Assembly: GCA_018303945.1 (NCBI GenBank)
Contig: JAGVXD010000001.1
Location: 2,877-66,876, forward strand
Length of the DNA: 64,000 nt
DNA from: Candidatus Pacearchaeota archaeon
GTDB lineage: Archaea > Nanobdellota > Nanobdellia > Pacearchaeales > GW2011-AR1
Direction: 5' to 3'
The notes beneath the pieces were generated by a model. It was not told the origin of the DNA. It saw only the letters and a list, made by a program, of their open reading frames with translations, and did no database searches. Positions 690 to 26,975 of this stretch are shown here, one piece after another (position 1 is the first letter of the stretch; every line of letters begins with the position of its first letter). The position numbers and the translations under genes are program-made.

Positions 690-2030
690 ATGACAACAAA
701 AACAAAACAAGAAGTTGAAGAAATCATAAGGAAATATGAATCTATGATTCCTGCAATATATGAAGCAGGAGCATTTCCTGAAGATTTTAAGCTTCAACCA
801 AGTGACTGGGCATTAAAAGAAGAAGTTGTACAAAGACCAGCTTTAGAAACGCTAGTTGGAGGAAAGCAAACTTCAATCAGACCTATCTCAACTATGGACT
901 TAGAATTCTTATCAAACTCTACAGTCCAAAAAGCAAAGAATGGAGAAGTAAATCTTGTAAATAATTATCCTTGTGGACTTAAGTGTCCAGGATGTTTCTC
1001 TCAAGAAGGAGTATATGGAGATAAATCAAATTTGATGACATGGCAAGAAGTTATGGGAGTAGTTGATGATGCAAGAACAATCGGGTTGCAAGGTACTAAA
1101 TTCTTAGGTCCTGGAGAATTATTTCAGAATCCTGACCTTTTTGATATTCTTGATGCATTTGAAGAGAGAGGGTTACCGATAAGTATCTTTACCAAAGGAG
1201 CTGAATTAGGTAATGATGAATTGGCAATAAGGAATTATGGTCATCTTGGAGTAAAATCTGCTAAAGAGCTAGTAGAAAAAGTATCTCAATACGATTGTGT
1301 AAGAATATTGCTTGGCTTCAATTCATTATTCTCAGATAGGCAGGATAAAATGGTTGGTTCATCCACAATGACAAGAGACTATCAGGTTAATAATGGTACT
1401 TTCACAAACAGAGGAGTCTCAAATTACACTGAAAAAAGAAATCTAGCACTAGTTAATTTAGTTGAAGCTGGTTTCAACGATCCAAGTAAAGGACAGAGAT
1501 TATCATTAATAGCAGCACCAGTTGGTCTTGAGCAGATTGACGAGATTCCAACAATGTACTTATGGGCTGCAAAAAGAAATATTCCTTTGGTGATAGCTCC
1601 AACCATGGAGTCTGGACCAAAATCTATTGGATTAAGTGCTCAAAATAAAAGAATTGACCCTAATCATGAAATGCTAGTTCAGTTGATGACTGAAGTTTAT
1701 GATACAGCCATACAAAATGGAGTTATGAGCTTAGAACAGATGAGAAGAGAAGAGGTTTCAGCTTACATGGGAACATCCCCATGCAATCAAGTTGCAAACG
1801 GATTATTCTTAAGGCTAAATGGAAGAATTCAGATGTGCCCTGGAAGAAGCGATTCAACAGCAATATATGGGAATACTCATGAAACACCATTAGCAGAAAT
1901 ATGGGAAAATAGTCCAAATTACAGATTAGGAGCTAGAACAAATAACTGGTGCACGGCAAAGACAGAAGGAATGCCTAAGAATGTTCAAAGAGAGGTACTC
2001 AAGATACTTGAGGAAAAATATGGAAAGTAA
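690..2030 (+). CDS. Radical SAM enzyme with ~90-aa N-terminal extension and SPASM/twitch-like C-terminal domain
   Basis: CxxxCxxC at C95/C99/C102 (NYPCGLKCPGCF), glycine-rich GPGELF motif, C-terminal cysteines (SPCNQVANG...QMCPGRS...NWCTAK) and a GNTHETPLAEIWENSP motif typical of SPASM C-termini. RBS-like aaaggaaaaa precedes the ATG. Confidence 0.7.
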   Translation: MTTKTKQEVEEIIRKYESMIPAIYEAGAFPEDFKLQPSDWALKEEVVQRPALETLVGGKQTSIRPISTMDLEFLSNSTVQKAKNGEVNLVNNYPCGLKCPGCFSQEGVYGDKSNLMTWQEVMGVVDDARTIGLQGTKFLGPGELFQNPDLFDILDAFEERGLPISIFTKGAELGNDELAIRNYGHLGVKSAKELVEKVSQYDCVRILLGFNSLFSDRQDKMVGSSTMTRDYQVNNGTFTNRGVSNYTEKRNLALVNLVEAGFNDPSKGQRLSLIAAPVGLEQIDEIPTMYLWAAKRNIPLVIAPTMESGPKSIGLSAQNKRIDPNHEMLVQLMTEVYDTAIQNGVMSLEQMRREEVSAYMGTSPCNQVANGLFLRLNGRIQMCPGRSDSTAIYGNTHETPLAEIWENSPNYRLGARTNNWCTAKTEGMPKNVQREVLKILEEKYGK

Positions 2031-2457
2031 ACAATCTCTTGAAATTCTCATTGGTGACGATATGTTTTTGATGCCTGTTGATGCAATGATGGCACAAAAT
2101 CAATACTTAGAACCATTAAAAGAAAGAATTCCAGGATATGATGTTCGATTGTCATATGCTTCAACTCCAGAGGAAATGTTGACTGAAGCTTCAAGAGGAA
2201 CATATGATGTAATTATATCTGACTTAGATTATGGCACAACTGGAAGAATGGGAACTGAAGGGTTTGATGTGTGTAATGGAGTCAATAAAATGAATCTCTC
2301 AAAGAAGCCTTTCCTTGTCTTGTGTACATCAAGAGATGATGTTCAGAAGCAAATTAAGAAACTTCTTTATGAAGGTAAAATAGGTGCAGTAGTAACTCCT
2401 AAAAGTAAACATAAGTTTAATGCTTTAGCAGAATTTCTTGAAGAAAAGTATATTTAA
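2020..2457 (+). CDS. Stand-alone CheY-like receiver (REC) domain protein
   Basis: LEILIGDD (acidic pair), YDVIISDLDY (phospho-acceptor Asp), LVLCTS (Thr/Ser), GAVVTPKSK (conserved Lys). The track start at 1981 lies inside the upstream ORF; ATG at 2020 with aggaaaaa upstream is the more plausible start. It overlaps the rSAM stop by 11 nt. Confidence 0.55.
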   Translation: MESKQSLEILIGDDMFLMPVDAMMAQNQYLEPLKERIPGYDVRLSYASTPEEMLTEASRGTYDVIISDLDYGTTGRMGTEGFDVCNGVNKMNLSKKPFLVLCTSRDDVQKQIKKLLYEGKIGAVVTPKSKHKFNALAEFLEEKYI

Positions 2458-2610: not shown

Positions 2611-3678
2611 ATGAAAAAAGAGCTAAACGTCGTTGACTTATTTTGTGGTGCTGGAGGGTTGAGTTTTGGATTTGCAAAGGCAGGTTTTAACATAATTTTG
2701 GGAGTTGATAATGATAAAGATTCTAAAGAGACTTTCTTAAAAAATCATCCAGACTCTCAATACTTACTAAAAGATATTCGGTCAGTCTCAAAAGATGAAA
2801 TTTTAAGCTTAATTGGTGATAAAAAAATTGACCTTTTGATTGGTGGACCACCTTGTCAAGGATTCAGTGTATCTGGAAAAAGAGTTTACATGGATTCAAG
2901 AAATTCTCTCTATCTTGAGTTTTTCAGAATTTTAGATATTTTAAAACCAAACCACGCTCTTATTGAAAATGTGCCAGGTCTAAAAGGTCTTTTTGAAGGA
3001 AGGGCTTTAAAAAGTATTCTTGAAGAATTTTCAAAGAGAGGTTACAAAACAAACCATTCTATTTTAAAAGCAGATGAATATGGAGTCCCTCAAGTTAGAA
3101 AAAGAATAATCATAGTAGCCTCAAAAAAAGGAGAATTTGAATTTCCATTGCCATTAAGTACACAGGTCACTTTGGGTGATGCTATAAACGACCTACCTAT
3201 TTTAGAAGACTCAATTGAAGAAGACCAGTATATTTCTAAACCTAAAAATGAATATCAAAATTTGATGCGAATTAATTCCAATAAAATTCACAATCATATC
3301 GCAAGTAATCATTCAGACAGAACTAAGTCAATAATAGGTCTTGTTCCAGAAGGTGGAAATTACAAAAATCTTCCAAAAGAGCTTAGAAATACAAGAAAAG
3401 TTCATATTGCCTGGACAAGATTGAATAGTTCAAAGCCATCTCTTACCATAGATACAGGTCATAGACATCATTTTCACCCTTGGGCAAATAGAATCCCAAC
3501 TGTAAGAGAATCTGCAAGAATACAATCGTTTCCCGATAACTTTATATTTTATGGTAGCAAGACCTCTCAGTATAGGCAGGTTGGGAATGCAGTTCCCCCA
3601 TTACTTGCGGAGGCTATTGCACAACAACTAAAAAAGTGGATAAACGATGAAAACAAAAAAGATATACAAAACGCCTGA
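2611..3678 (+). CDS. DNA (cytosine-5)-methyltransferase (m5C MTase) 1
   Basis: Motif I FCGAGG, motif IV GGPPCQGFS, motif VI ENVPGL, motif X QVGNAVPP. Confidence 0.9.
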   Translation: MKKELNVVDLFCGAGGLSFGFAKAGFNIILGVDNDKDSKETFLKNHPDSQYLLKDIRSVSKDEILSLIGDKKIDLLIGGPPCQGFSVSGKRVYMDSRNSLYLEFFRILDILKPNHALIENVPGLKGLFEGRALKSILEEFSKRGYKTNHSILKADEYGVPQVRKRIIIVASKKGEFEFPLPLSTQVTLGDAINDLPILEDSIEEDQYISKPKNEYQNLMRINSNKIHNHIASNHSDRTKSIIGLVPEGGNYKNLPKELRNTRKVHIAWTRLNSSKPSLTIDTGHRHHFHPWANRIPTVRESARIQSFPDNFIFYGSKTSQYRQVGNAVPPLLAEAIAQQLKKWINDENKKDIQNA

Positions 3679-5080
3679 TAATTATTATTTCAGATTGCAT
3701 CATATCAGACCTAGATTTAAGAATGATATAGAAAGAATATTACTTATGGTAAGTTCTGCTGTTGCTGAAATGCCCATACAACAAAAAGAACAATTTGATA
3801 AATCACTTAATAAGATAATCAAAGGATTTCCAGGAAATGTTGTAAGAACGGATAAGACTATAAACAATTGGAGGACTGAGATTTCTGCATTATTTAGCCT
3901 TATTTTATATAACTTAGATAATGAAACAGAAGGTCCGAGCGAGATTGCAAAAAGAATGGCAAAAAATCAAGATTTAGTTGAATTTTTTAAGTTATTTTGT
4001 TATTCGTTTCAATATCCTGGAGGACACTTGAAATCTCAAGAAACTAAAAAACTTATTGAGCGAGGAATAAAGTTTAAACCTGCCCATTATATCTTAAAAC
4101 TTCTCTATCAAGCTAACAAGGGAGTAGAAACGCCATTTGGAATTAACAAAGCTGAAGTAACACACTGTATTTTTAATGATACTAGAGTTACTGTAGAGAA
4201 TAAAGACGTAAAAGAAACAATTGATTTAATTAAATCAAACCGAGAACAAGGCTTTGACTATGATTGGAAAGGTGATGTAATACGTTATGCAGGTGATATT
4301 ATGGATTATTTATACTATGCAAATCTCTTAAAAAAGCATGGAGCAAATTATTATTTAAATCCTGTTGAAATGGGAGCAATAATCACATTTGTGGAAAAAG
4401 ACCCGTGGTTCAATTTATACGACAAATTTTATGGAAAAAGTGTTACAAATGAAGAATTGAGAGAAGCTCAAAACAAATGGTTTTACTACGTTTCAAATTT
4501 ATCTGTAAAAGCAAACTTTGAAACAGATGTACTTGCATTCATGGGAATAGATAAAAACAATTATCTGGAAATAGAAAAGAAAGCCACAGCTATTGCAATT
4601 ACTGAATTTAAGAATAAAATAACCGATAAGATACTTAAAACCAAAGAAATAGGAGATGCAGGGGAAAATCTTGCGATAGGTCATGAATGTATGAGGCTAA
4701 AAAACGGTGGTAGAGAAGACCTTATAGGTAAGGTAGTATATCTTCCTAATTATTTGAAGATGGGATATGATATAAGGTCATTTGAATTGGATTCCGACTT
4801 GCGACTTATTGAAGTAAAAACCACTATCAGCAATACAGATATAGATTTTAAATCATTCCATATGACTGAAAACGAATGGAATATTGCGTCAAGTATGGGA
4901 GAAAAGTATTATGTTTATAGAATGGTAATAAGCAGGTCATCTGTAAAACTATTTATAATAAGGAATCCTGTTAATAAGTATAAGAGTGGCATCCTAGACG
5001 TTACTCTTTCAAATGGAGCTCAGGTGAACTTTGATAAAAGGGCAGGTAAATACGAAAAAATTTTAATATGGCAAAAATAA
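3647..5080 (+). CDS. Putative restriction endonuclease; C-terminal DUF3883-like PD-(D/E)xK domain, N-terminal ~330 aa uncharacterised
   Basis: C-terminal GYDIRSFELDSDLRLIEVKTT...FHMTENEWNIA...YYVYRMV matches the DUF3883 / restriction-endonuclease-like pattern. It is flanked by two m5C MTase genes with overlapping ORFs. The true start may be downstream of 3647 (overlap of 32 nt). Confidence 0.55.
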   Translation: MKTKKIYKTPDNYYFRLHHIRPRFKNDIERILLMVSSAVAEMPIQQKEQFDKSLNKIIKGFPGNVVRTDKTINNWRTEISALFSLILYNLDNETEGPSEIAKRMAKNQDLVEFFKLFCYSFQYPGGHLKSQETKKLIERGIKFKPAHYILKLLYQANKGVETPFGINKAEVTHCIFNDTRVTVENKDVKETIDLIKSNREQGFDYDWKGDVIRYAGDIMDYLYYANLLKKHGANYYLNPVEMGAIITFVEKDPWFNLYDKFYGKSVTNEELREAQNKWFYYVSNLSVKANFETDVLAFMGIDKNNYLEIEKKATAIAITEFKNKITDKILKTKEIGDAGENLAIGHECMRLKNGGREDLIGKVVYLPNYLKMGYDIRSFELDSDLRLIEVKTTISNTDIDFKSFHMTENEWNIASSMGEKYYVYRMVISRSSVKLFIIRNPVNKYKSGILDVTLSNGAQVNFDKRAGKYEKILIWQK

Positions 5081-6117
5081 AAATAGCATCGTTATTCTGT
5101 GGATGCGGTGGAACCGAGTTAGGGATAATCGGAGGTTTCAATTTTTTAGGTAAGAAATATTTTAGACACAACACCGAAATCGTATTCGCAAATGATATAG
5201 AAAAGAGTGCTTGTGAAATATACAATGCTAATTTTGAACATGAAAGTGTATGTGCAGATATAAAGAAGATATCTTCTATTGACATACCAGACCATGATGT
5301 TCTTATAGGAGGATTTCCGTGTCAATCTTTTTCAATAGTTGCTCAAAATCCACCAAGACTTGGATTCAAATCTGAAAATGGCAGACTTTTTCTAGAGATG
5401 GTTCGTATTCTTAAAGACAAAAGACCCAAAGCATTTATTGCTGAAAACGTAAGAGGGCTTATTTCAGCAAATAACGGCAAGGCTTTTCCTCTAATTTTAA
5501 AAGAATTTGAAAAGGCAGGTTACAGAGTAGACTATAAACTCGTAGATGCGTCAGGGTTTGGTGTGCCTCAGCGTAGACAGAGAGTTGTAATAATAGGTTA
5601 TAGAAATGACCTAAATATCAGCCCTTCCTTTCCTGAGCCATCAAATAATAATCCTGTTCCTCTAAAGAAAGTAATCTTTGACCATAAAGATGTTGATGAA
5701 AGATATTATTTTAGTGAAAGAGCAATTGAGGGATTACAAAAATCCAATAAATCAATGAACAAAGGTAGATCACAGAATATTGAAGAGCCTTGTGCTACAG
5801 TTACTTCACACCTTGCCAAAGTTAGTTTAAACAGCACAGACCCTGTATTAAAAATAGGTGAAAAATACAGAAGATTTACCCCTAGAGAAGTAGCAAGAAT
5901 ACAATCTTTTCCTGAGTCTTTCAAACTGATAGGGAGCGATTTTCAAAAGTATAAGGCATTAGGAAACGCAATACCTCCTGTATTGTTCTGGCATATAATG
6001 AAAGAAGTAAGTGAAAAGTTATTAGAATTAAAAGAGAGTAATTTAGTAGCTCCTAATATGACTGAACTTTTAACAATAATTACCGCGGACAAAAGTACCC
6101 CTTTATTAAATTGTTAA
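5068..6117 (+). CDS. DNA (cytosine-5)-methyltransferase (m5C MTase) 2
   Basis: FCGCGG, GGFPCQSFS, ENVRGL, QRRQRVVIIG, LGNAIPP. Overlaps the upstream ORF by 13 nt. Confidence 0.9.
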   Translation: MAKIKIASLFCGCGGTELGIIGGFNFLGKKYFRHNTEIVFANDIEKSACEIYNANFEHESVCADIKKISSIDIPDHDVLIGGFPCQSFSIVAQNPPRLGFKSENGRLFLEMVRILKDKRPKAFIAENVRGLISANNGKAFPLILKEFEKAGYRVDYKLVDASGFGVPQRRQRVVIIGYRNDLNISPSFPEPSNNNPVPLKKVIFDHKDVDERYYFSERAIEGLQKSNKSMNKGRSQNIEEPCATVTSHLAKVSLNSTDPVLKIGEKYRRFTPREVARIQSFPESFKLIGSDFQKYKALGNAIPPVLFWHIMKEVSEKLLELKESNLVAPNMTELLTIITADKSTPLLNC

Positions 6118-6129
6118 AGAGAAGATGAA

Positions 6130-6786
6130 ATGACAGCATTTAAACTATCACCATCAACACTAAACCTATTAAAAGAATGTCCAAGATGCTTCTGGCTGTC
6201 TGAACATGAGGTGTGGAGTAGACCAAATGGTATTTTTCCTTCATTGCCTTCAGGAATGGATGGGATTTTAAAAAAACATTTTGATAAGTTTATGGAAAAA
6301 GGTAAACTTCCTCCAGAATTATGTAGTAAATCTGAATGTGAAAATCTTAAACTATTTGATAATAAGGATTTATTGAAAGAATGGAGAAACTCACGAAAAG
6401 GTTTATGGTTTGAAGATAAAGAAGGAAATATACTTCATGGAGGGATAGATAACTTGATGGTAAATAAAGTAAATAATAAACTAATTGTTTTAGATTACAA
6501 AACAAGAGGTTTCCCATTAAAAGATGATACTCATGAACACTATCAAGACCAACTTAATATCTATGCTTGGTTACTTGAGAAATTAGGACACAAAGTAGAA
6601 GACCATGCTTATTTGTTATTCTATCATCCAAAAGAAGTTTTAGAAACTGGAGAGGTTGTTTTTAATACGGATTTGAAAAAGATGAAAATTACACCAGAAC
6701 ATGCAGAGAAACTATTCAACAAAGCAATAAAGATGTTAGGTGAAGACTGTCCTAAACAAACATGTGTATGGTGTGAAAAAGTATAG
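6130..6786 (+). CDS. Cas4-like / RecB-family PD-(D/E)xK nuclease with 4-Cys Fe-S cluster ligands (DUF83-like), stand-alone
   Basis: N-terminal CPRCFW, motif II HGGIDNLMV, motif III LIVLDYKTRG, QxxxY (QDQLNIYAWLL), C-terminal CPKQTCVWC. Confidence 0.7.
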   Translation: MTAFKLSPSTLNLLKECPRCFWLSEHEVWSRPNGIFPSLPSGMDGILKKHFDKFMEKGKLPPELCSKSECENLKLFDNKDLLKEWRNSRKGLWFEDKEGNILHGGIDNLMVNKVNNKLIVLDYKTRGFPLKDDTHEHYQDQLNIYAWLLEKLGHKVEDHAYLLFYHPKEVLETGEVVFNTDLKKMKITPEHAEKLFNKAIKMLGEDCPKQTCVWCEKV

Positions 6787-6826
6787 ATAGTAAATTCTTT
6801 ATAGTGGCTTTTAGTCAATTTTTAGT

Positions 6827-8212
6827 ATGGCTATAACAAACTATGAGGGAGAAAGAGAGGCAACAGTTCATGATTCTAGTAGCTACGGCAAGAAAATAAT
6901 TGAATTTATGGAGTTGAGAGATTATTCTTTAGTAAAAGACTCTGATACAGATGGTATCTTTCAAGATAAGGTCTTTAGAAGACCAAATTTTGATGGTGAA
7001 AAAGAGACTTATGTTGAAATAAAATATACGAATTTAAGTTTATCTGATAAAGACTTCTTGGCAGGGTTTGGGAAATACTTTATTATGTATATGGAAAGCT
7101 CAACCAAATTTTATTTTAAGTTATTTGCTAGAAATCTTAAAAACTTTACAAAATGGAAATCGATATTTGATGATGTTTCCAATAAATATGATGAAGTTAA
7201 AAAGTTTAGAACAAGTATCAAAGAATCTTTATCTGAAGATTTGAAAAATAAGTTTAATTCTTTTGAAATGAGAGATTTCAAAGCGTTTGTGGGACAAATT
7301 GAAATAATAAAGATAGGGTATGAGAAATTAATCCAAAAGATTACAGACTTAAAAGAAAATAAAAAATTTAACAAAAACGAGAATTATCTAACAGAAAAAC
7401 AAAAATTAGTCTATCAAAAAGAGAAAATATTTAGCAATCTTGTTAAAGTTGGGACTTTACCAAAGATATATGTTTATAATCTAAGTCAAGGTCTTGAGCC
7501 AACATTCTGGAATTCTAAAGATATCAATAAGTTTATTACATATAAAGAAAAAGCTATATCAATAAATCCCTTACCAAACGATATAATTAAGAAGTATTGT
7601 CTAGGAAATACACCAGAATATAAAGATATAGACAATATGGGTCTAGATGATGAAGAAAGACTAAATTTGAGAAAAAGGGTTACAGAACTATTTATAATTT
7701 CTAAGGGAGAAAACACTAATTATACTTTTAATAGAAACTTCAATTGTCTTTACGTAATATATGAAAAAGTCACCAGTTCTCCCTTAAAAATGAAGGGTAA
7801 AGAAGGACATAAGAGGAGAATGGTAGCTAGACCATATTTTAAAGATAAGAAACTAAATTTTGTTACTCATAGAGCTTTAAAGTTTAGAGTTACTGATTTT
7901 GATGGAGAGTTATTTATAATTTTTAACTTCTTTAGACTTTTTACAAAAGATGGTAGAGAAATTATAGAAGGTGAAAGTGCAAAAAGATTAAATTATGGTT
8001 TTAGACCAACTAATAGTTCAAATCTACAAGAGCATAGTGTCTTGGACTTTCTTATTACACTTTTAGATTTGAAAACAAAAACTCTAAATCATCAGAATTT
8101 CATAGCAACTAAATCCTTAGAGTTAGAATCTCCTTGTAAGGCATCTGAAATAGAATTATTTGATGAATCACCAAACTATGAACTAATGGATGAATCGGAG
8201 GATGAAGAATGA
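6827..8212 (+). CDS. Short-pAgo partner protein: N-terminal PD-(D/E)xK-like (Mrr/DREN-like) nuclease motif plus ~330-aa region inferred to be APAZ
   Basis: N-terminal EFMEL...DSDTDGIF...ETYVEIKYT (E-x-D-x21-ExK). 461 aa. Its stop overlaps the pAgo start (ATGA at 8209-8212). APAZ is inferred from gene context and was not confirmed. Confidence 0.45.
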   Translation: MAITNYEGEREATVHDSSSYGKKIIEFMELRDYSLVKDSDTDGIFQDKVFRRPNFDGEKETYVEIKYTNLSLSDKDFLAGFGKYFIMYMESSTKFYFKLFARNLKNFTKWKSIFDDVSNKYDEVKKFRTSIKESLSEDLKNKFNSFEMRDFKAFVGQIEIIKIGYEKLIQKITDLKENKKFNKNENYLTEKQKLVYQKEKIFSNLVKVGTLPKIYVYNLSQGLEPTFWNSKDINKFITYKEKAISINPLPNDIIKKYCLGNTPEYKDIDNMGLDDEERLNLRKRVTELFIISKGENTNYTFNRNFNCLYVIYEKVTSSPLKMKGKEGHKRRMVARPYFKDKKLNFVTHRALKFRVTDFDGELFIIFNFFRLFTKDGREIIEGESAKRLNYGFRPTNSSNLQEHSVLDFLITLLDLKTKTLNHQNFIATKSLELESPCKASEIELFDESPNYELMDESEDEE

Positions 8213-9618
8213 GTAAAGATTTTGAAGTTATTTATATCCCCGAACCACAACTTCTTTTTAATAAAAACAAACAGGCATATAATCCTTGTGTAGGCTTAAT
8301 AAAACATGGTCCTAGATTTTCTGGAAACAAAGAAGTAGATTACAAGGAGTTTAGAATAGGTATTATTGGTTCTGATAAAAGTATTTCTCAGGCTAAGGAT
8401 TTATTTGAACAGTTTCAATTTAAGATATCTCCTAAAAAAGAGGTAAAACCATGGAGAATTCCATTCCCTGGACTAAATAAAGAATCTCCATTAAATTTCT
8501 CTTTTGTCTTTAACCCAGAATGGGAGGGAGAGATAACTTCTAATGAAATGGTTTATTTAAAAGATAAAAGTAAGGGGAAAGAAAGAAATGAGGAGCTACT
8601 TAGTATAATTAAGGATAGAATGAAAAAAATATATCATAGCGAAAGCCCACCAGACATGATTTTAATAAGTATCCCCGAAGAATTATTTACTATTTTTAGT
8701 ACTTCTGGGTCAGATAAACCAAATATTAAATTAGATGATGATGATTTTCATAACCGAATTAAAATTCTAGCTATGGAATTAAAAATGCCAACACAACTAA
8801 TAAGACCTGAAACACTAAAACAAGATAAGACACAAGAACTTTTCTTGATTGCTTGGAATTTGGTAGTTGGAATCTTATATAAATGTCAAAGAGGACATCC
8901 TTGGAAATTAACTTATTTAGAAGAAGATACTTGTTACGTAGGAATATCATTTTTTAGAGAAAAGACAAAGAAAACAATAAGAGCTAGCCTTGCACAAATA
9001 TTCTTAGATACTGGTGAGAGTTTTGTTCTTAGAGGAGATTCATTTAAGTGGGTTAATAAAAAAAATCCAAACAGCCCACATTTATCAAAGGAGAGTTCAA
9101 AAGATATAATTGAATTGGTATTAAAACACTACAAAAGTGTTAGAAAAGGCAAGAATCCAACCAGGTTAGTTATCCATAAAAGCTCAGGATATTGGGAAGA
9201 AGAATTGGAAGGTTTTATTGAAGCATCTAAAGAAATTAAAAAGAGAGATTTTGTTACAATTTTAGATTCCGATGTGAAATTTTTTACTTCTAACAAATAC
9301 CCCGTTTTAAGAGGGACTTTGATAACAAACAAAGATACTAATTTTCTTTATACAACTGGCTTTGTTCCTACACTAGGAACTTATCCAGGGATAACTACTC
9401 CAAGACCTCTATCGATTAAATCTTATAACTTAGACTCGGATATAAAGAAGGTTTGTGAGGAGATATTATCTTTTACCAAATTAGATTGGAATAACACCTT
9501 TGTTTATAGTAAATTCCCTGTAACAATATCTGTTTCAAGAAAAGTAGGGAATATTATGGCTGAGACTGTAGCTCAAAATATTGAAGAATTAGACCCCCAT
9601 TATTTCTATTATATGTAG
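8209..9618 (+). CDS. Short prokaryotic Argonaute (MID-PIWI), catalytically degenerate PIWI
   Basis: PIWI-like blocks CYVGISFF (in place of GxDVxH), PTRLVIHKSSG (in place of iiYRDG), DFVTILDSDVKFF, GTLITNKDTNFLYTTGFVPTLGTYPGITTPRPLSI (matches the GTvvD...FyL...GTsrPthY block). The catalytic D positions appear to be S/S/T. 469 aa. Confidence 0.75.
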   Translation: MSKDFEVIYIPEPQLLFNKNKQAYNPCVGLIKHGPRFSGNKEVDYKEFRIGIIGSDKSISQAKDLFEQFQFKISPKKEVKPWRIPFPGLNKESPLNFSFVFNPEWEGEITSNEMVYLKDKSKGKERNEELLSIIKDRMKKIYHSESPPDMILISIPEELFTIFSTSGSDKPNIKLDDDDFHNRIKILAMELKMPTQLIRPETLKQDKTQELFLIAWNLVVGILYKCQRGHPWKLTYLEEDTCYVGISFFREKTKKTIRASLAQIFLDTGESFVLRGDSFKWVNKKNPNSPHLSKESSKDIIELVLKHYKSVRKGKNPTRLVIHKSSGYWEEELEGFIEASKEIKKRDFVTILDSDVKFFTSNKYPVLRGTLITNKDTNFLYTTGFVPTLGTYPGITTPRPLSIKSYNLDSDIKKVCEEILSFTKLDWNNTFVYSKFPVTISVSRKVGNIMAETVAQNIEELDPHYFYYM

Positions 9619-11786: not shown

Positions 11787-11858
11787 GGCGGATGTAGTTT
11801 AACGGTAGAACAACGGACTGTGGCTCCGTAGACGAGGGTTCGACTCCCTCCTCCCGCT
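11787..11858 (+). tRNA. Putative tRNA-His (anticodon GTG) with G at -1; imperfect acceptor stem; possible pseudo-tRNA
   Basis: Anticodon arm ACGGA-CTGTGGC-TCCGT, T-arm GAGGG-TTCGACT-CCCTC, D-arm GTTT/AAGC-like. The acceptor stem GCGGATG/CTCCCGC has A-C and T-T mismatches. Confidence 0.4.
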
Positions 11859-12110
11859 CTTTATATTATGTCGGGAACCACCGCACCCTAAAGGGTGCGG
11901 TAAACGCAAGGACTTTTTGATGTTGATGAAATTGACACTTGATTACGGGAGAATTGCCTTTAGTCTGCATGGGAAAGTTCCGGCGGACATTTATTTTGCA
12001 TTCGGAAAATTATTTTAAAGGTTGTGACAAATGTCTATGTCCTGTAACATTACTTAAATCATCGCAAGCTTTTTAAACCGAGTTTTGCTTCACTCTTCGT
12101 TAATAGTACC

Positions 12111-20784: not shown

Positions 20785-23700
20785 ATGGTTTATATAAAAA
20801 AAATGGTGATGCATGGCTTTAAAAGCTTTGCAAAACGCACAGAGGTATTTTTTGATAAGGGGATTAACGTAATTTTAGGTCCTAATGGGAGTGGCAAGTC
20901 AAACATTTCAGATAGTCTCTGCTTCGTATTGGGAAGGCTTTCCATAAAATCTATGCGTGCAGCTAAAGCAAGAAATCTTCTGTTTATGGGTTCAAAATAT
21001 ATAAAACCGGCTAAAGAAGCAAGCGTTGAAATAACCTTTGATAATTCAGACCGTGCTTTTGCTATAGAAAAAAATGAAATCACTCTTAAAAGAGTAGTGC
21101 GTTCAAATGGACAGGGAATATATAAAATTAACGACGAAACAAAAACTCGCCTGGAAGTTATTGAAATGCTTGCCCAGGCAGGCATAGATCCTTACGGCTT
21201 TAATCTTATACTTCAAGGTCAGATTCAGTCAATAGTAAAAATGCATCCTGAAGACAGGCGCAAGATTATAGAAGAAGTAGCTGGAATCTCTATATATGAA
21301 TCGAGAAAAGAGAAATCTCTTAAAGAGCTTGAGAAAACAGAAGAGAAACTAAAGGAAATTGGGGCAATTTTAAGAGAGCGTACAGCATACTTGAGAAATC
21401 TTGACCGCGAACGCTCCCAGGCCCTGCGTTTTAAAGAATTAGAACAAATAATGAGGCGCTGTAAAGCATCTATAATTCAGAAAAAAACACATGAGAAAGA
21501 GAAAGAAATTGCAAATATAGATAAATCCATAAACGAAAAGGGAGAATACAAAGAGAAAAACAAAGAGGAAATAAATAAAATACAGCAAGAACTTGAAAAA
21601 TATTCTGAAAGAATTAATGAAATTACCAAAAAAATACAACAAGCCACTGGTTTAGAGCAGGAAACACTTCATACTAATATAGCAAACCTGAAAGCCGAGC
21701 TGGAAGGCCTGCGCGTCCGTCTTGAAAATTACGAGAATAAAAAAGCAGAAATAAGCCGAAGAATGACTGAAATGGAGCGTTCAATACCTAGTTTGGAAGA
21801 GGAAATAAGAGAACTTAAAGACGAATCCCCGCTTGTTGCCCAAAAATCTCAAGAACTTAAAAAGAAAAAAGAAGAAATGACAAAATTAGAAGAAGAAAGG
21901 AAGAGAGTACTTGCGCTTAAAACGGAGCTGCATTCTGTCAAAGAGCGTATTAAAGACAAGGAAAGACAGCTTTCTCGCGCCTCGCTCACATCGGAAAACC
22001 TACTCAAACAGCTGGAAGAATACACTATGGACTTAACATACGAGAACGATAAATCTTGTGCAGATTCTATCATCTCACTTAGACAAAGTACAATCTCTTA
22101 CAAAGTTCAGCTTTCTGAAATAGCGCAGAGAGAATTAGAGAAAGAAAAAGCAATATCCGTTGCACAGTCCGAAATACAAAAATCCGAGAAAGTTAAAAAA
22201 GATGTTGAAAGCATGGATGTCTGCCCGCTTTGCAAGAGCCAAATAACTAAAGAACACATAGACCATGTAAACTCTGATGCAACATCTAAAATTGAATTAG
22301 CTAAAAGCTCAATAAGCTCAGCCATGCAAAATCTATCTGAAATACGCGAAAAAATTAAGACAATTCAGATATCTTTGCAGAATACTGAAAAAAAGATATC
22401 AGTCGCAGAAATAGAGCTGGTAAAGCATAAATCTGCTGCAGAAAAGAAAGAGCAATTGAAGAAGATGGTTGAAGAAGAAAGAATGCTTAAAGATGAGATT
22501 CTTACTTTAGAAAACAAAAGAAAGCAGCTTGAAGAAAAGACGCTTGATGTATCAAAAATAGAGGAGAAATATGATCAGACGATACTTGAGATAGAAGAAA
22601 TATCTTCAAGAACAGCAGAAGATGTAGACACTACATTATTGTACAAAGAGAGGGACTTGGAGAATATAAGGAGTATAATAAAAAGAAGCACAAGAGACCA
22701 TGGAGAAGTATCACAACAAATTGAAGAACTCCAAGCTTCTATGAAAGAGAAAAAGCATCGTCTTCAAGAAAAAGAATCACAGGAGCAGGATCTGCAAACA
22801 AGATTCAAGAAGATGTTTGAAGAAAGAGAGAATATACAAAAGCAAATTCAGGAGAAAAACCTCAAACTATCTGAAGTGCAAAGTGGCCTTAGAGCAATAG
22901 AAGAACAAATAAATTACCTTAAGATAGGAAAGGCGAAAATAGACGCTGAACATGAAGCCCTGCAAATGGAATATACTGAATTCAGCGAAGTTGAAATTAT
23001 CCAGGGTAGCATATCTTTCCTGGAAGAAAAGCTACAGAAAACCCAGGAGACTCTTCAGCAAATTGGTTCAATAAATATGCGCGCTTTGGAAGTATATAAA
23101 GAAGTGAAAAAAGAATATGATATTGTGCAGGAAAAAGTAAACACTTTAGATAAAGAAAAACAAGACATTGTTGCAATTATATCTGAAATAGACAATAAAA
23201 AGAGAAGGTCATTCATGAAGACATATAGGGCAATGAATGCATTATTCTCTGAAAACTTCTCTAAGCTATACTCTAAAGGAACTGCTTTCCTTGAACTTGA
23301 AAATGAAGAAGACCTCTTTTCTGGAGGAGTCAACATAGTGGTAAAACTTGCAAAGAGCAAATATTTCGATGTAACTTCTCTCTCTGGAGGAGAGCAGACC
23401 TTAGTTGCGCTCTCCCTTCTTTTTGCCATACAGGAATACAAACCATATCACTTCTATGTTTTTGATGAGATTGACGCGGCATTGGACAAACGAAATTCAG
23501 AACGTCTTGCAGGACTCTTAAACCAGTATATGAAGTCTGGACAATACATAGTCATAACTCACAACGATGCAATAATATTGAACTCTCATTTATTATATGG
23601 TGTGAGCATGCACGATGGAGTTTCCAAGGTGCTAAGTCTTAACATAAAAGACTCCATACCTCAAGAATATCTCCAGCCTGAAAAAAAACCTGAACAAATG

Positions 23701-23889
23701 CCACAAGCTTATCTTCAAAAAGCTACAGAAGAATCTTTAAAGCGGGAAATTGCAGAGCATGCCAAAGAAGAGATAGCCTACAATGTGGCCCCTCTTGCTA
23801 ATGAAACGATTGAAGAATCTATACGGGAAGAGGAAGTGAAAGATAATATGTCGAGCAACAATGCCAATCAAGAAACAACAGGTGATTAA
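20785..23889 (+). CDS. SMC-type ABC ATPase with central CxxC zinc hook (Rad50-like hook, no hinge)
   Basis: N-terminal GFKSFAKRTEVFFDKGINVILGPNGSGKSNISDSLCFVLG, C-terminal LSGGEQTLVALSLLFAI...FYVFDEIDAALD, central CPLCKSQ within continuous coiled coil. Confidence 0.8.
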   Translation: MVYIKKMVMHGFKSFAKRTEVFFDKGINVILGPNGSGKSNISDSLCFVLGRLSIKSMRAAKARNLLFMGSKYIKPAKEASVEITFDNSDRAFAIEKNEITLKRVVRSNGQGIYKINDETKTRLEVIEMLAQAGIDPYGFNLILQGQIQSIVKMHPEDRRKIIEEVAGISIYESRKEKSLKELEKTEEKLKEIGAILRERTAYLRNLDRERSQALRFKELEQIMRRCKASIIQKKTHEKEKEIANIDKSINEKGEYKEKNKEEINKIQQELEKYSERINEITKKIQQATGLEQETLHTNIANLKAELEGLRVRLENYENKKAEISRRMTEMERSIPSLEEEIRELKDESPLVAQKSQELKKKKEEMTKLEEERKRVLALKTELHSVKERIKDKERQLSRASLTSENLLKQLEEYTMDLTYENDKSCADSIISLRQSTISYKVQLSEIAQRELEKEKAISVAQSEIQKSEKVKKDVESMDVCPLCKSQITKEHIDHVNSDATSKIELAKSSISSAMQNLSEIREKIKTIQISLQNTEKKISVAEIELVKHKSAAEKKEQLKKMVEEERMLKDEILTLENKRKQLEEKTLDVSKIEEKYDQTILEIEEISSRTAEDVDTTLLYKERDLENIRSIIKRSTRDHGEVSQQIEELQASMKEKKHRLQEKESQEQDLQTRFKKMFEERENIQKQIQEKNLKLSEVQSGLRAIEEQINYLKIGKAKIDAEHEALQMEYTEFSEVEIIQGSISFLEEKLQKTQETLQQIGSINMRALEVYKEVKKEYDIVQEKVNTLDKEKQDIVAIISEIDNKKRRSFMKTYRAMNALFSENFSKLYSKGTAFLELENEEDLFSGGVNIVVKLAKSKYFDVTSLSGGEQTLVALSLLFAIQEYKPYHFYVFDEIDAALDKRNSERLAGLLNQYMKSGQYIVITHNDAIILNSHLLYGVSMHDGVSKVLSLNIKDSIPQEYLQPEKKPEQMPQAYLQKATEESLKREIAEHAKEEIAYNVAPLANETIEESIREEEVKDNMSSNNANQETTGD

Positions 23890-25762: not shown

Positions 25763-25870
25763 AACAATTCAAGTTTGGACCCTTTTTATGTTTTTTCATT
25801 GAGCAATTTCACTACAAAGTTGGCATAACAACAGGAAGATTTAAAAGCATTTTTTTGTTTTCCTTTTCAT

Positions 25871-25943
25871 GCCCTGATAGTCTAGTGGTCAAGGACGAGG
25901 CCCTTTCGCGGCCTAAACCCGGGTTCAAATCCCGGTCGGGGCA
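25871..25943 (+). tRNA. tRNA-Glu (anticodon TTC)
   Basis: Full cloverleaf by hand: acceptor GCCCTGA/TCGGGGC, anticodon arm AGGCC-CTTTCGC-GGCCT, T-arm CCGGG-TTCAAAT-CCCGG. Confidence 0.85.
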
Positions 25944-26048
25944 TTATACCATTTTATCCGGGCATGATACATTACCAGATTTCAACCATATTCTAAAAGG
26001 TGACCACAAATTAGAAATATTTATAAACGTGGGCACCTTAGATATATC

Positions 26049-26975
26049 ATGTATATAGAAAAAAGAAAGGTTGGTAAGAGCATAAAGTATTATCTTGTTC
26101 ATTCATATAGAGAAAAAGATAAGGTAGAAAAAATAAGAAAATATCTAGGGATTAATCTTTCTGAATCTGAACTAGAAAAAAGAAAAGAAGAAACTACAAA
26201 AGTTATATCTGAGTTATTAGAAGATATAAACACAAAGATATTCTCTTTCACATTATCAAAAAAGCAAGTTGAACTATTAAATAATTATAATAATAAAATA
26301 AGAATATTACATCTAAGTGAAGCGGAATGGAAAAAATTTACCGAAGAGTTCGTCTATAACACAAATGCGATAGAAGGCTCAACAGTAACTCAAGAAGAAG
26401 TTCCAGAAATATTAAATAAAGAAATAGTCGAGAACTCAGAAGAAATTGAAACTCAAGGAGTTGCCAATGCAATAAACTATCTAAGAGACACAAAAGAAGA
26501 ATTATCTTTGAATTTATTATTAAAACTTCATGAGTTATGCTTTAAAGGATCAAAACCTTTTGCAGGCAAATTCAGAGAAGTTAACGTGGTAGTTAGAAAC
26601 TCTATTGGACAAGTCCTTCATGCAGGCGTTCCTAAAGAAGAATTAGAAGATTATCTTAAAGATTTTATTAATTGGTATAAAAATAACAAAAATAAGTTTA
26701 AACCTCTTGTCTTGGCTGCAATAATTCATAATCAGTTTGAACATATACATCCATTCCAAGATGGAAATGGAAGAGTTGGAAGATTGTTATTGAACTATAT
26801 CTTGCTCAAAAGGGGTTACCCCCCAATAAACATTAAACTTGAGGACAGGCAAGAATATTATAAAACCTTGCAAGAATATTCTAAAAATGATAATTTAAAA
26901 CCAACTTTGAAGTTTTTGATTAAACAATATAAGAAGACACTTAAAGAGGTGTCTACAAAAAGTAAAAATTACTAG
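26049..26975 (+). CDS. Fic/Doc (Fido) family protein
   Basis: Fic motif HPFQDGNGRVGRLL. Confidence 0.85.
   Translation: MYIEKRKVGKSIKYYLVHSYREKDKVEKIRKYLGINLSESELEKRKEETTKVISELLEDINTKIFSFTLSKKQVELLNNYNNKIRILHLSEAEWKKFTEEFVYNTNAIEGSTVTQEEVPEILNKEIVENSEEIETQGVANAINYLRDTKEELSLNLLLKLHELCFKGSKPFAGKFREVNVVVRNSIGQVLHAGVPKEELEDYLKDFINWYKNNKNKFKPLVLAAIIHNQFEHIHPFQDGNGRVGRLLLNYILLKRGYPPINIKLEDRQEYYKTLQEYSKNDNLKPTLKFLIKQYKKTLKEVSTKSKNY

What the first reader, a model, noticed from the sequence alone, without database searches (positions are those of the whole stretch)
6130..6786. Stand-alone Cas4-like Fe-S nuclease without CRISPR-Cas, positioned directly upstream of the pAgo pair
The protein has the RecB motifs GGIDNLMV, LIVLDYKT and QLNIYAWLL, plus CPRC at the N-terminus and CPKQTCVWC at the C-terminus, which reads as a 4-Cys cluster. 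No CRISPR array or other cas gene is visible anywhere in the 64 kb. The gene sits 12 bp after the second MTase and 40 bp before the pAgo partner. It may process guide or substrate DNA for the pAgo system, or act as a spacer-independent nuclease.
Basis: partly seen in the sequence, partly recalled or inferred. Interest (0 to 1): 0.6.

Follow-up and report, generated by a model that had tools for sequence, protein, structure and literature searches.

The report
Stand-alone Cas4-like nuclease, not Argonaute-specific
The gene is a real Cas4-like DNA nuclease found widely in tiny DPANN archaea, usually next to restriction-modification genes and never next to an Argonaute in the 85 related loci held, so its position beside the Argonaute pair here is probably incidental.

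Summary
ORF 6130-6786 (+, 218 aa) is a RecB-type PD-(D/E)XK nuclease (Pfam PF12705, E=1.8e-11). Every quoted motif, both intergenic gaps (12 and 40 bp) and the lack of a CRISPR array or core cas gene in the 64 kb are confirmed.

The Argonaute link is not supported. The family has more than 3,500 relatives, all named ones from Pace-/Woese-/Nanoarchaeota. None of 85 related loci (±10 kb where the contig allows) holds a pAgo or APAZ gene. None of six loci with relatives of this pAgo pair holds the nuclease. No neighbour is conserved.

What does recur is restriction-modification. DNA methyltransferases make up 19 of 149 immediate neighbours, against at most 3 of 150 seven or eight genes away, and most are co-directional with gaps of a few bases. 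TATA-like hexamers pile up about 27 nt before the start codon across 82 loci, which suggests the gene has its own promoter.

Solo Cas4 in DPANN archaea, and its adjacency to R-M genes, were described in 2017. I file this as a new member of a known kind. Its one distinctive trait is a shifted cysteine pattern: CxxC…CxxC across the family instead of Cas4's 1+3. Its biological role is unresolved.

The parts
6130..6786 (+). Cas4-like (PF12705-type) RecB-family PD-(D/E)XK nuclease gene, 218 aa
   Evidence: ORF; Pfam PDDEXK_1 E=1.8e-11; PADLOC Cas4 models E about 5e-10, partial; AF2 model pLDDT 89; Foldseek top hits MGME1, Cas4, RecE, ACE1
6178..6189 (+). N-terminal CPRC (C17, C20). C17 aligns with the single N-terminal cluster cysteine of Cas4; C20 is an extra ligand that is invariant across the family
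   Evidence: Alignment to Cas4 4R5Q 'YCPRLLW'; C17 and C20 each conserved in 107 of 110 representatives
6439..6462 (+). Motif II GGIDNLMV (catalytic D107)
   Evidence: D107 conserved in 109 of 110 representatives; invariant in A1
6481..6504 (+). Motif III LIVLDYKT (D122-x-K124, the D/ExK of PD-(D/E)XK)
   Evidence: D122 in 106 of 110, K124 in 108 of 110
6550..6576 (+). RecB-type QhxxY motif QLNIYAWLL (Q141, Y145)
   Evidence: Q141 in 106 of 110, Y145 in 108 of 110
6748..6774 (+). C-terminal CPKQTCVWC (C207-x4-C212-x2-C215). C212 and C215 are conserved across the family; C207 only in the Pacearchaeota clade
6102..6110 (+). TATA-like element TTTATTAAA, 20-28 nt before the ATG and inside the 3' end of the upstream MTase gene. 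Inferred own promoter giving a leaderless mRNA
   Evidence: TATA-like hexamers pile up at -30..-26 in 82 homologous loci: 35 hits in that bin against 1-9 in other 5-nt bins. Inference only; no transcript data
2611..6117 (+). Context, not part of the nuclease: complete BpuJI-type R-M cassette (m5C MTase 2611-3678, REase 3647-5080, m5C MTase 5068-6117)
   Evidence: Pfam DNA_methylase E=9e-73 and 6e-79; BpuJI_N E=6e-94
6827..9618 (+). Context, not part of the nuclease: REase-APAZ partner (6827-8212) plus short pAgo (8209-9618). Its own TATA-like TTTATA lies at 6798-6803
   Evidence: PADLOC Aga_REase_Archaea E=4e-69 and pAgo_I E=1e-137; Piwi E=3e-9; upstream sequence

Best explanation
The gene encodes a stand-alone ('solo') Cas4-like nuclease of the RecB/PD-(D/E)XK superfamily, belonging to a family found widely in Nanoarchaeia-type DPANN archaea (Pace- and Woesearchaeota). 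Inferred mechanism: a metal-dependent active site (D107, D122-x-K124, with Q141/Y145 positioning the DNA) cuts or resects DNA ends. The N- and C-termini are stapled together by a four-cysteine metal site (C17/C20 + C212/C215, plus C207 in this clade) that is homologous to the Cas4/AddB iron staple but uses a shifted ligand set. The gene appears to be its own transcription unit. It is not a dedicated component of the adjacent Argonaute pair. It recurrently sits inside variable regions rich in restriction-modification genes and mobile-element genes. The most likely role (inferred, not shown) is a generic processor of broken DNA: it degrades or resects ends produced by whichever defence nuclease lies nearby, chiefly R-M enzymes, in organisms assumed (from general knowledge, not checked here) to lack RecBCD/AddAB. 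Shown here: family assignment, motif conservation, absence of pAgo linkage, enrichment and tight spacing of R-M genes. Inferred: the metal bound, substrate preference, promoter, biological role.
For: Family and fold. Catalytic and cysteine conservation. Abundance and taxonomic range: 3,587 homologues, all named ones from Pace-/Woese-/Nanoarchaeota; 176 species genomes; 235 clusters at 50% identity with E<1e-30. No pAgo link: none of 85 loci and none of 6 reverse loci. No conserved neighbour: the largest neighbour cluster covers 10 of 83 loci. R-M enrichment: DNA MTases at 19 of 149 immediate neighbours against at most 3 of 150 at +-7/8 genes (Fisher p=3e-4), decaying with distance as 12%, 7.6%, about 3%, then 0%. 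Sixteen of 18 adjacent MTases are co-directional, with median gaps of 3-9 bp and several 4-bp overlaps. Own promoter signal at about -27 across 82 loci. The literature already reports solo-Cas4 in most DPANN and R-M adjacency in several (PMC5704561). A purified solo-Cas4 from Methanosarcina mazei is a metal-dependent DNase with a [4Fe-4S] cluster (PMC12501428).
Against: The protein is about as conserved as the RNA polymerase subunit RpoE' (mean pairwise identity 66% against 68%). That is unusual for defence genes and fits a housekeeping role equally well. About 70-75% of loci have no R-M gene within two genes, so any R-M link is facultative. The R-M partners are of unrelated types (type I, IIG, m5C, N4/N6), so no specific complex is implied, and co-location could reflect an insertion hotspot rather than function. 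No biochemical or transcript data exist for this family. The metal could be Zn rather than Fe-S. Contexts come from MAGs and short contigs.
Confidence: 0.5

Rival explanations
1. It is a purely housekeeping DNA repair or recombination nuclease (end resection or flap processing) of a reduced genome. Its locus happens to be a hotspot where R-M cassettes, pAgo and mobile elements insert, with no functional link to defence.
For: Conservation equal to RpoE' and close to the two >1,000-aa ORFs at 44044-50738, presumed RNA polymerase subunits, in L037 (63% against 64%). Dense identity continuum across 176 species. Own TATA signal whatever the upstream gene is. Most loci have non-defence neighbours such as MgtE, HAD, TYW3 and DUF218. 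In 5 loci it lies 5-10 kb from the RpoE'-Spt4-S24e cluster, as in the window.
Against: A gene flanking a hotspot should keep a conserved neighbour on one side. None is seen on either side, even between homologues 92-94% identical. R-M genes occur equally at -1 and +1, with 4-bp overlaps. Its GC3 (0.215) matches the surrounding island genes (0.21-0.24), not the core genes (0.27-0.38).
Confidence: 0.25
2. It is a cargo or hallmark gene of integrative mobile elements or defence islands (an 'MGE-Cas4'). It serves the element's own replication or recombination, or counter-defence, and travels together with R-M cassettes.
For: Integrase, recombinase or transposase genes lie within 10 kb in 25 of 80 loci, including a DDE transposase at -2/-3 in 9 loci. 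In this organism a PrimPol/D5_N primase-helicase and a serine resolvase lie 7-10 kb upstream (L093). GC3 is island-like. There is no shared synteny among near-identical homologues. Cas4-like genes are common on archaeal viruses and MGEs (PMC5704561).
Against: Only 2 hits among 2.9 million IMG/VR viral contigs, against 176 species genomes. Conservation is very high and smoothly graded, unlike typical MGE genes. 55 of 80 loci show no MGE marker. No att-type repeat of the nearby tRNA-His was found.
Confidence: 0.12
3. One reading: it is an Argonaute accessory analogous to ACE1/ACE2, processing guides or substrates for the adjacent short pAgo system in this genome.
For: Immediate adjacency on the same strand with a 40-bp gap. 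There is precedent that Cas4-family enzymes cooperate with pAgos: ACE1 trims siDNA guides for long-A pAgos (PMC12094033), and Cas4 is listed among pAgo-associated nucleases (PMC6299218). ACE1 structures are among the Foldseek hits (E=1.6e-4).
Against: No co-occurrence in either direction. The closest relatives of this pAgo pair (68-78% and 81-89% identity) sit after type I R-M and YgjP genes instead. The partner here is a short pAgo with its own nuclease effector, and a characterised system of that type uses RNA guides (PMC10810196). The protein is 218 aa with a different cysteine pattern, against 278 and 313 aa with 1+3 Cys for ACE1 and ACE2. TM-scores to ACE1 are only 0.34-0.39, no better than to MGME1 or Cas4. 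Both genes have their own TATA-like element.
Confidence: 0.06

Closest known systems
Solo-Cas4 / Cas4-like nucleases of DPANN archaea (Hudaiberdiev et al. 2017, PMC5704561)
   Same: Encoded outside any CRISPR-cas locus in a small-genome DPANN archaeon. RecB-type catalytic motifs plus four conserved cysteines. Adjacent to restriction-modification genes, which that paper already noted for several DPANN genomes and which I reproduced quantitatively.
   Different: By profile it falls in pfam12705 (PDDEXK_1), not in Cas4 proper (pfam01930 / TIGR00372). Its cysteine ligands across the family are CxxC…CxxC rather than C…CxxCx5C. I could not confirm that this exact family is one of the DPANN clades in that paper's tree.
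CRISPR-associated Cas4 (e.g. Pcal_0546 4R5Q; type I-C Cas4 in 8D3L/7MI4)
   Same: Same fold class (Foldseek E about 4e-5 to 1e-4). The N-terminal 'SPS…CPR..W' motif aligns with Cas4. D…DxK…QxxxY active site.
   Different: No cas1, cas2 or array nearby. TIGR00372 scores 30.5 bits against a cut-off of 65. TM-scores are only 0.44-0.48 at 17-19% identity. The cysteine spacing differs.
ACE1/ACE2, Argonaute-associated Cas4 family enzymes (Bobadilla Ugarte et al. 2025, PMC12094033; PDB 9IAB, 9IAC)
   Same: A Cas4-superfamily nuclease encoded next to a prokaryotic Argonaute; weak structural similarity (E about 2e-4).
   Different: ACE1 and ACE2 are conserved partners of long-A, catalytically active, DNA-guided pAgos in bacteria. 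They are 278 and 313 aa with 1+3 cysteines and form a heterodimer with the pAgo. Here the pAgo is short, archaeal and paired with a REase-APAZ effector, and the adjacency is not conserved in any related locus.
Nuclease domains of AddB/AdnA/RecB, MGME1 and RecE/lambda-exonuclease-type enzymes
   Same: PD-(D/E)XK core with a QhxxY motif. Weak AddA hits. MGME1 is the top Foldseek hit (E=1.5e-5). The terminal-staple metal site resembles that of AddB/AdnA.
   Different: No helicase partner or fused helicase, and no conserved helicase neighbour. MGME1 and RecE lack the cysteine site. TM-scores are 0.3-0.45.

Membership tests
Cas4 proper (pfam01930/DUF83, TIGR00372, COG1468) | Profile match at or above the curated threshold | tested here: not met
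   No PF01930 hit at E<=0.01. TIGR00372 scores 30.5 bits against a cut-off of 65, covering only residues 100-200. PADLOC Cas4 models give E about 5e-10 but partial coverage.
Cas4 proper (pfam01930/DUF83, TIGR00372, COG1468) | RecB-type catalytic motifs (D, D/ExK, QhxxY) | tested here: met
   D107, D122-x-K124, Q141 and Y145 are invariant in A1 and conserved in at least 106 of 110 distant representatives.
Cas4 proper (pfam01930/DUF83, TIGR00372, COG1468) | Four cysteines arranged 1 (N-terminal) + 3 (C-terminal, CxxCx5C) that bind an Fe-S cluster | tested here: inconclusive
   C17 aligns with the Cas4 N-terminal cysteine. The C-terminal spacing is C207-x4-C212-x2-C215. Across the family only C17, C20, C212 and C215 are conserved, a 2+2 pattern. 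The metal bound cannot be determined with these tools.
Cas4 proper (pfam01930/DUF83, TIGR00372, COG1468) | Encoded in a CRISPR-cas adaptation module (with cas1/cas2) | tested here: not met
   No array and no core cas gene among the PADLOC families listed for 44 other ORFs in the 64 kb. The rest of the genome was not seen.
Solo Cas4-like nucleases, pfam12705 (PDDEXK_1) type | PF12705 match above the gathering score, full length | tested here: met
   44.9 bits against 22; residues 6-215 match profile positions 2-240 of 247.
Solo Cas4-like nucleases, pfam12705 (PDDEXK_1) type | Stand-alone gene outside cas loci, in variable or defence contexts | tested here: met
   No conserved neighbour in 83 loci. 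R-M genes are enriched next to it.
Solo Cas4-like nucleases, pfam12705 (PDDEXK_1) type | Cas4/RecB/lambda-exonuclease-like fold | tested here: met
   AF2 pLDDT 89, pTM 0.85. The top 13 PDB hits are all MGME1, Cas4, the DinG nuclease domain, RecE or ACE1, with probability >=0.98 but TM-scores of only 0.31-0.48. 95 viral PD-(D/E)XK hits at E<=1e-3.
Solo Cas4-like nucleases, pfam12705 (PDDEXK_1) type | Metal-dependent DNase activity | not testable with these tools
   Needs purified protein. A solo-Cas4 from M. mazei has such activity (PMC12501428), but that is a different protein.
ACE1/ACE2 (Argonaute-associated Cas4 family enzymes) | Conserved co-encoding with a pAgo across relatives | tested here: not met
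   None of 85 nuclease loci has a pAgo or APAZ gene. None of 6 loci with relatives of the pAgo pair has the nuclease.
ACE1/ACE2 (Argonaute-associated Cas4 family enzymes) | The partner is a long-A, DNA-guided, catalytically active pAgo | tested here: not met
   The partner here is a 469-aa short pAgo (PADLOC pAgo_I, E=1e-137) with a REase-APAZ protein.
ACE1/ACE2 (Argonaute-associated Cas4 family enzymes) | Size about 278 or 313 aa with 1+3 cysteines; membership of the ACE clades | tested here: not met
   218 aa with a different cysteine pattern (against PMC12094033). No sequence-level hit to 9IAB or 9IAC. Foldseek TM-scores 0.34-0.39. No phylogeny with ACE sequences was made.
ACE1/ACE2 (Argonaute-associated Cas4 family enzymes) | Forms a heterodimer with the pAgo and trims its guides | not testable with these tools
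   Requires biochemistry.
Nuclease-APAZ / short pAgo systems (SPARDA-like), as a possible third component | The system needs a gene beyond the APAZ-effector and the short pAgo | tested here: not met
   In relatives the pair occurs without the nuclease. A characterised DUF4365-APAZ/short pAgo pair works as a heterodimer (PMC10810196).

The most novel reading that the evidence does not exclude
This Nanoarchaeia-wide Cas4-like nuclease, with its re-wired CxxC…CxxC staple, is a shared back-end enzyme for innate immunity. It would degrade, and perhaps recycle into nucleotides, the DNA ends produced by whichever defence nuclease sits next to it: type I, II or IIG restriction enzymes and, here, the REase-APAZ/pAgo effector. 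It would play the part that RecBCD/AddAB plays after restriction in bacteria. Defence islands would then accrete around it, which would explain the tight, often overlapping gene spacing with unrelated R-M types.
Probability: 0.2. Interest if true: 0.55.

Novelty: new member of a known kind. Interest (0 to 1): 0.28.

Why it matters
It matters mostly as a corrective. Adjacency to an Argonaute pair in one genome is not evidence of a three-gene system, and this locus should not be counted as a Cas4-pAgo association of the ACE type.

What remains of interest is modest but real. DPANN archaea largely lack CRISPR-Cas yet keep a highly conserved Cas4-like nuclease. That nuclease is statistically tied to restriction-modification genes of many unrelated types, often with overlapping reading frames. 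If the tie is functional, it would identify the missing enzyme that disposes of restricted DNA in these reduced genomes. It would also give an experimentally tractable, 218-aa entry point into solo-Cas4 biology, which has been an open question since 2017.

Tried and rejected
(1) pAgo linkage. I ran tblastn with the window's pAgo and APAZ proteins against 85 nuclease loci and got no hits. For the reverse test I used three contexts of APAZ homologues and three metagenome loci found with a pAgo alignment; none carried the nuclease. Rejected.

(2) A conserved operon partner such as a helicase. Clustering of the +-4 neighbours gave no cluster larger than 10 of 83 loci. The large neighbours proved to be type IIG R-M fusions or PLD-SNF2 proteins, not a conserved helicase. 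Rejected.

(3) Sequence-level relatives with solved structures. phmmer and a profile search of PDB sequences found nothing significant; the best was Cas4 4R5Q at E=0.36. Only profile libraries and fold comparison place the family.

(4) Strict vertical inheritance. Pairwise identities of the nuclease against RpoE' in 5 genomes have similar means (66% and 68%) but correlate weakly (r=0.28). That is too few taxa, so I claim only equal conservation, not congruence.

(5) An 'empty site' showing insertion of the pAgo pair. None of the closest homologues (87-94% identity) shares any flanking gene with the window or with one another, so no insertion boundary could be drawn.

(6) tRNA-His as an attachment site. 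No tRNA-derived direct repeat was found in the 20 kb around the locus.

(7) A viral origin. Only 2 hits in IMG/VR. One of these contigs carries an IS200-type transposase and a type IIG R-M gene, and none of the nine ORFs scanned matched a capsid or terminase family.

(8) The bacterial sigma-70 promoter and terminator scanner was not used, because the host is archaeal. I made a position-specific TATA count instead.

(9) The geometry of the cysteine site in the AF2 model could not be measured, because the coordinates are not exposed to the scripting tool.
Full report
OBSERVATION. The ORF at 6130-6786 (+) is real: 218 aa, ATG to TAG. The spacing is as stated. The gene starts 12 bp after the stop codon of the second m5C methyltransferase (5068-6117) and ends 40 bp before the next gene (6827-8212).

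Pfam places the protein in PDDEXK_1 (PF12705) over its full length, with E=1.8e-11 and 44.9 bits against a gathering score of 22. PADLOC Cas4 models match the C-terminal half at E about 5e-10. NCBIfam's Cas4 equivalog TIGR00372 reaches only 30.5 bits against a cut-off of 65, and no PF01930 hit appears.

Upstream lies a complete BpuJI-type cassette: an m5C MTase at 2611-3678, a BpuJI_N REase at 3647-5080 (E=6e-94), and an m5C MTase at 5068-6117. Downstream lies a REase-APAZ protein (PADLOC Aga_REase_Archaea, E=4e-69) followed by a 469-aa short pAgo (pAgo_I, E=1e-137).

No CRISPR-like array exists in the 64 kb. A PADLOC scan of 44 further ORFs listed no core cas gene. The only cas-labelled hit listed was a weak Csa3 match (E=4.5e-6) in an ORF I did not identify.

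WHAT THE PROTEIN IS. An alignment of 24 homologues shows D107, D122, K124, Q141 and Y145 invariant, together with seven cysteines. I then aligned 110 representatives of the wider family at 32-56% identity, taken from an exhaustive HMM search that found 235 clusters at E<1e-30. The active-site residues remain conserved in at least 106 of 110. Only four cysteines remain: C17 and C20 (CxxC) and C212 and C215 (CxxC). C65, C70 and C207 are confined to the Pacearchaeota clade.

The N-terminal stretch aligns with the 'SPS…YCPRLLW' motif of the Cas4 protein 4R5Q, which puts C17 on Cas4's single N-terminal cluster ligand. The site therefore looks homologous to the Cas4/AddB 'iron staple' but with a shifted ligand set, 2+2 across the family instead of 1+3. 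Whether it binds Fe-S or Zn cannot be decided here.

An AlphaFold2 model is confident (pLDDT 89, pTM 0.85). Foldseek against the PDB returns only Cas4-superfamily nucleases at the top: MGME1, type I-C Cas4, the DinG nuclease domain, RecE and ACE1. Their E-values run from 1.5e-5 to 2.7e-4, but TM-scores are only 0.31-0.48 and identity 11-19%. Against predicted viral structures there are 95 PD-(D/E)XK hits. No solved structure is detectable by sequence alone. The label 'Cas4-like' is therefore correct at superfamily level, and membership of Cas4 proper is not met.

IS IT LINKED TO THE ARGONAUTE PAIR? The family is large. It has 3,587 homologues, with the top 120 at 63-88% identity. All named ones come from Pacearchaeota, Woesearchaeota, Nanoarchaeota or Nanoarchaeia, and they are annotated as 'PD-(D/E)XK nuclease family protein' or 'Cas4 (RecB family)'.

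A scan of one genome per species found relatives in 176 species, and 80 loci with up to 10 kb of flank were fetched. Adding five loci from metagenome look-ups gives 85. None of the 85 contains a relative of the window's pAgo or APAZ protein.

The reverse test gives the same answer. The APAZ partner has only four close homologues in the 5.8-billion-protein index. In three relatives at 68-78% identity, whose pAgos are 81-89% identical, the pair follows a type I R-M operon, a YgjP-like gene and, in two of them, an unannotated 354-aa gene. The nuclease is absent from all three. Three more distant pAgo loci found in metagenomes also lack it. L086 (pAgo pair) and L073 (nuclease) come from the same MAG but lie on different contigs. 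The Argonaute adjacency is therefore private to this population. In that population it is stable: the identical protein is indexed in 41 blocks of the collection, and 22 contigs were read. Fifteen of those show the same neighbourhood, 13 of them collapsed as similar places.

The known biology points the same way. A characterised nuclease-APAZ/short-pAgo pair acts as a heterodimer that uses RNA guides and unleashes its own nuclease (PMC10810196). The documented Cas4-pAgo partnership, ACE1/ACE2, concerns long-A DNA-guided pAgos of bacteria, with larger proteins (278 and 313 aa) and 1+3 cysteines (PMC12094033).

WHAT DOES RECUR AROUND IT? No neighbour is conserved. After clustering the four genes on each side in 83 loci, the largest neighbour cluster covers 10 loci. 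The top clusters are N4/N6 methylase, HsdM, a DDE transposase, m5C methylase, MmeI-type enzymes, a tyrosine integrase and PLD-SNF2.

Using methyltransferase seeds, the fraction of MTase-like ORFs falls with distance from the nuclease. It is 18/149 at +-1 gene, 10/131 at +-2, about 3% at +-3 to +-6, and 0/432 from +-7 outward. Those seeds came from near neighbours, so I repeated the test without them. A Pfam scan of all 149 immediate neighbours gave N6_Mtase 8, N6_N4_Mtase 7 and DNA_methylase 4, and also ResIII 6 and NTP_transf_2 5. A scan of 150 ORFs at +-7/8 showed no DNA methylase family with two or more members. Fisher's exact test gives p=3e-4 for 19/149 against at most 3/150.

Sixteen of the 18 adjacent MTase genes are co-directional with the nuclease. 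Their median gaps are 3-9 bp and several overlap it by 4 bp. Other co-directional neighbours have median gaps of 34-41 bp. The window's 12-bp gap to the m5C MTase fits this pattern. Integrase, recombinase or transposase genes lie within 10 kb in 25 of 80 loci.

In this organism the contig continues upstream of the window into a PrimPol/D5_N primase-helicase and a serine resolvase (L093). The GC3 of the nuclease (0.215) matches the genes from 690 to about 10,700 (0.21-0.24) rather than the core genes (0.27-0.38). Even homologues 92-94% identical to one another share no flanking gene.

Against a purely mobile nature, the protein is as conserved as RpoE' (mean pairwise identity 66% against 68% in five genomes). 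It matches the two >1,000-aa ORFs at 44044-50738, presumed RNA polymerase subunits, in L037 (63% against 64%). It is almost absent from IMG/VR, with 2 hits.

TRANSCRIPTION (inference). I aligned 82 loci on the start codon. TATA-like hexamers pile up at -30 to -26, with 35 hits in that 5-nt bin against 1-9 elsewhere. An A-rich stretch lies just upstream of them and there is no Shine-Dalgarno-like signal. This is the signature of an own promoter producing a leaderless mRNA, whatever the upstream gene is. In the window the element is TTTATTAAA at 6102-6110, inside the end of the MTase gene. The APAZ gene has TTTATA at 6798-6803, 24-29 nt before its ATG. Its relatives instead show Shine-Dalgarno-like sequences and are probably co-transcribed with upstream genes.

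INTERPRETATION. The best-supported reading is a stand-alone Cas4-like nuclease, widespread in its lineage, that is not a dedicated Argonaute accessory. It lives in variable, R-M-rich, mobile-element-rich regions and most likely processes broken DNA ends. I favour a generic role downstream of defence nucleases, chiefly R-M, at 0.5. A pure housekeeping repair nuclease sitting at an insertion hotspot gets 0.25. Mobile-element cargo gets 0.12. An ACE-like pAgo accessory gets 0.06. These roles cannot be separated with the data at hand.

COMPARISON WITH WHAT IS KNOWN. Hudaiberdiev et al. 2017 (PMC5704561) reported that most DPANN archaea, Pacearchaeota and Woesearchaeota included, encode solo-Cas4 without CRISPR-Cas. 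They also reported that in several of these genomes it is adjacent to R-M genes, 'implying' an uncharacterised defence role. They treat pfam12705 proteins as a separate Cas4-like group. A solo-Cas4 from Methanosarcina mazei has been shown to be a [4Fe-4S]-binding, metal-dependent DNase (PMC12501428).

The present gene is therefore a new member of a known kind. What I add is a quantified R-M association with tight gene spacing, evidence for an own promoter, and the 2+2 cysteine variant. I set interest at 0.28. The locus is ordinary for its lineage and the proposed Argonaute connection fails, but the unexplained tie between a highly conserved solo nuclease and unrelated R-M types remains a fair experimental target.

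Noticed in passing
window 2611-6117: A complete BpuJI-type type IIS restriction-modification cassette: two m5C methyltransferases flank the endonuclease (BpuJI_N E=6e-94, plus a NOV_C domain). The reading frames overlap by 32 nt (3647-3678) and 13 nt (5068-5080). No relative of the endonuclease occurs in any of the 85 loci that carry a nuclease homologue.
   Followed up: partly
window 6827-9618; L086, L087, L088: The REase-APAZ/short-pAgo pair is rare: only 4 close APAZ homologues were found in the 5.8-billion-protein index. In its three closest relatives it follows a type I R-M operon and a YgjP-like gene. In two of them an unannotated 354-aa protein (no Pfam hit) lies directly upstream and could be a lineage-specific third gene of that system.
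   Followed up: partly
L093 1-3400 (same organism, about 7-10 kb upstream of the nuclease, beyond the window's left end): A PrimPol/D5_N/DUF5906 primase-helicase (794 aa) and a serine resolvase precede the rSAM, R-M, nuclease and pAgo block. Genes from 690 to about 10,700 have GC3 of 0.21-0.24, against 0.27-0.38 for core genes, and tRNA-His lies at 11788-11859. This looks like an integrated element or defence island, but no att-type repeat was found.
   Followed up: partly
window 6788-6832: An imperfect 24-nt tandem duplication (1.9 copies, 82% match). Its second copy contains the APAZ start codon: TTTATAGTGGCT against TTTAGTATGGCT. It could be a junction scar or chance in AT-rich DNA.
   Followed up: no
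82 loci, positions -30 to -26 before the nuclease ATG; window 6102-6110: A strong positional pile-up of TATA-like hexamers about 27 nt before the start codon, an A-rich stretch upstream of it and no Shine-Dalgarno signal. This suggests leaderless transcription in these archaea.
   Followed up: partly
L011, L016, L024, L025, L027, L033, L039, L052, L053 (genes -2/-3 from the nuclease): The same DDE-type transposase family recurs two or three genes upstream of the nuclease in nine species. In several of them (for example L024, L033, L039, L052, L053) an R-M gene is the immediate neighbour at -1 or +1.
   Followed up: no
window 6322-6339 (C65, C70) and 6748-6750 (C207): Three further cysteines are invariant or nearly so in the Pacearchaeota clade but absent from the wider family. 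They might form a second metal site or give ligand redundancy. Model confidence dips in residues 31-40 and 61-70.
   Followed up: partly
window 26049-26975: A 308-aa Fic-domain protein matching the defence models SoFic (E=1.6e-38) and PDC-S04 (E=4e-34). It lies next to tRNA-Glu (25870-25944).
   Followed up: no
window, ORFs not located: The PADLOC scan of 44 ORFs also gave mad3 (E=9e-54) and mad2 (3 ORFs, best E=1e-20), plus LmuB/AriA/JetC-type hits that may come from the housekeeping SMC at 20785-23889. I did not find out which ORFs match mad2 and mad3.
   Followed up: no
L095 (IMGVR_UViG_3300038424_000692): One of only two 'viral' contigs carrying the nuclease. It holds an IS200-type transposase and a type IIG R-M enzyme, and none of the nine ORFs scanned matched a capsid or terminase family. 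It may be a cellular fragment misclassified as viral.
   Followed up: partly
window 690-2457: A radical-SAM/SPASM protein (446 aa) overlaps a 158-aa receiver-like protein (weak Response_reg hit) just upstream of the R-M cassette. Neither has a relative in any of the 85 nuclease loci.
   Followed up: no
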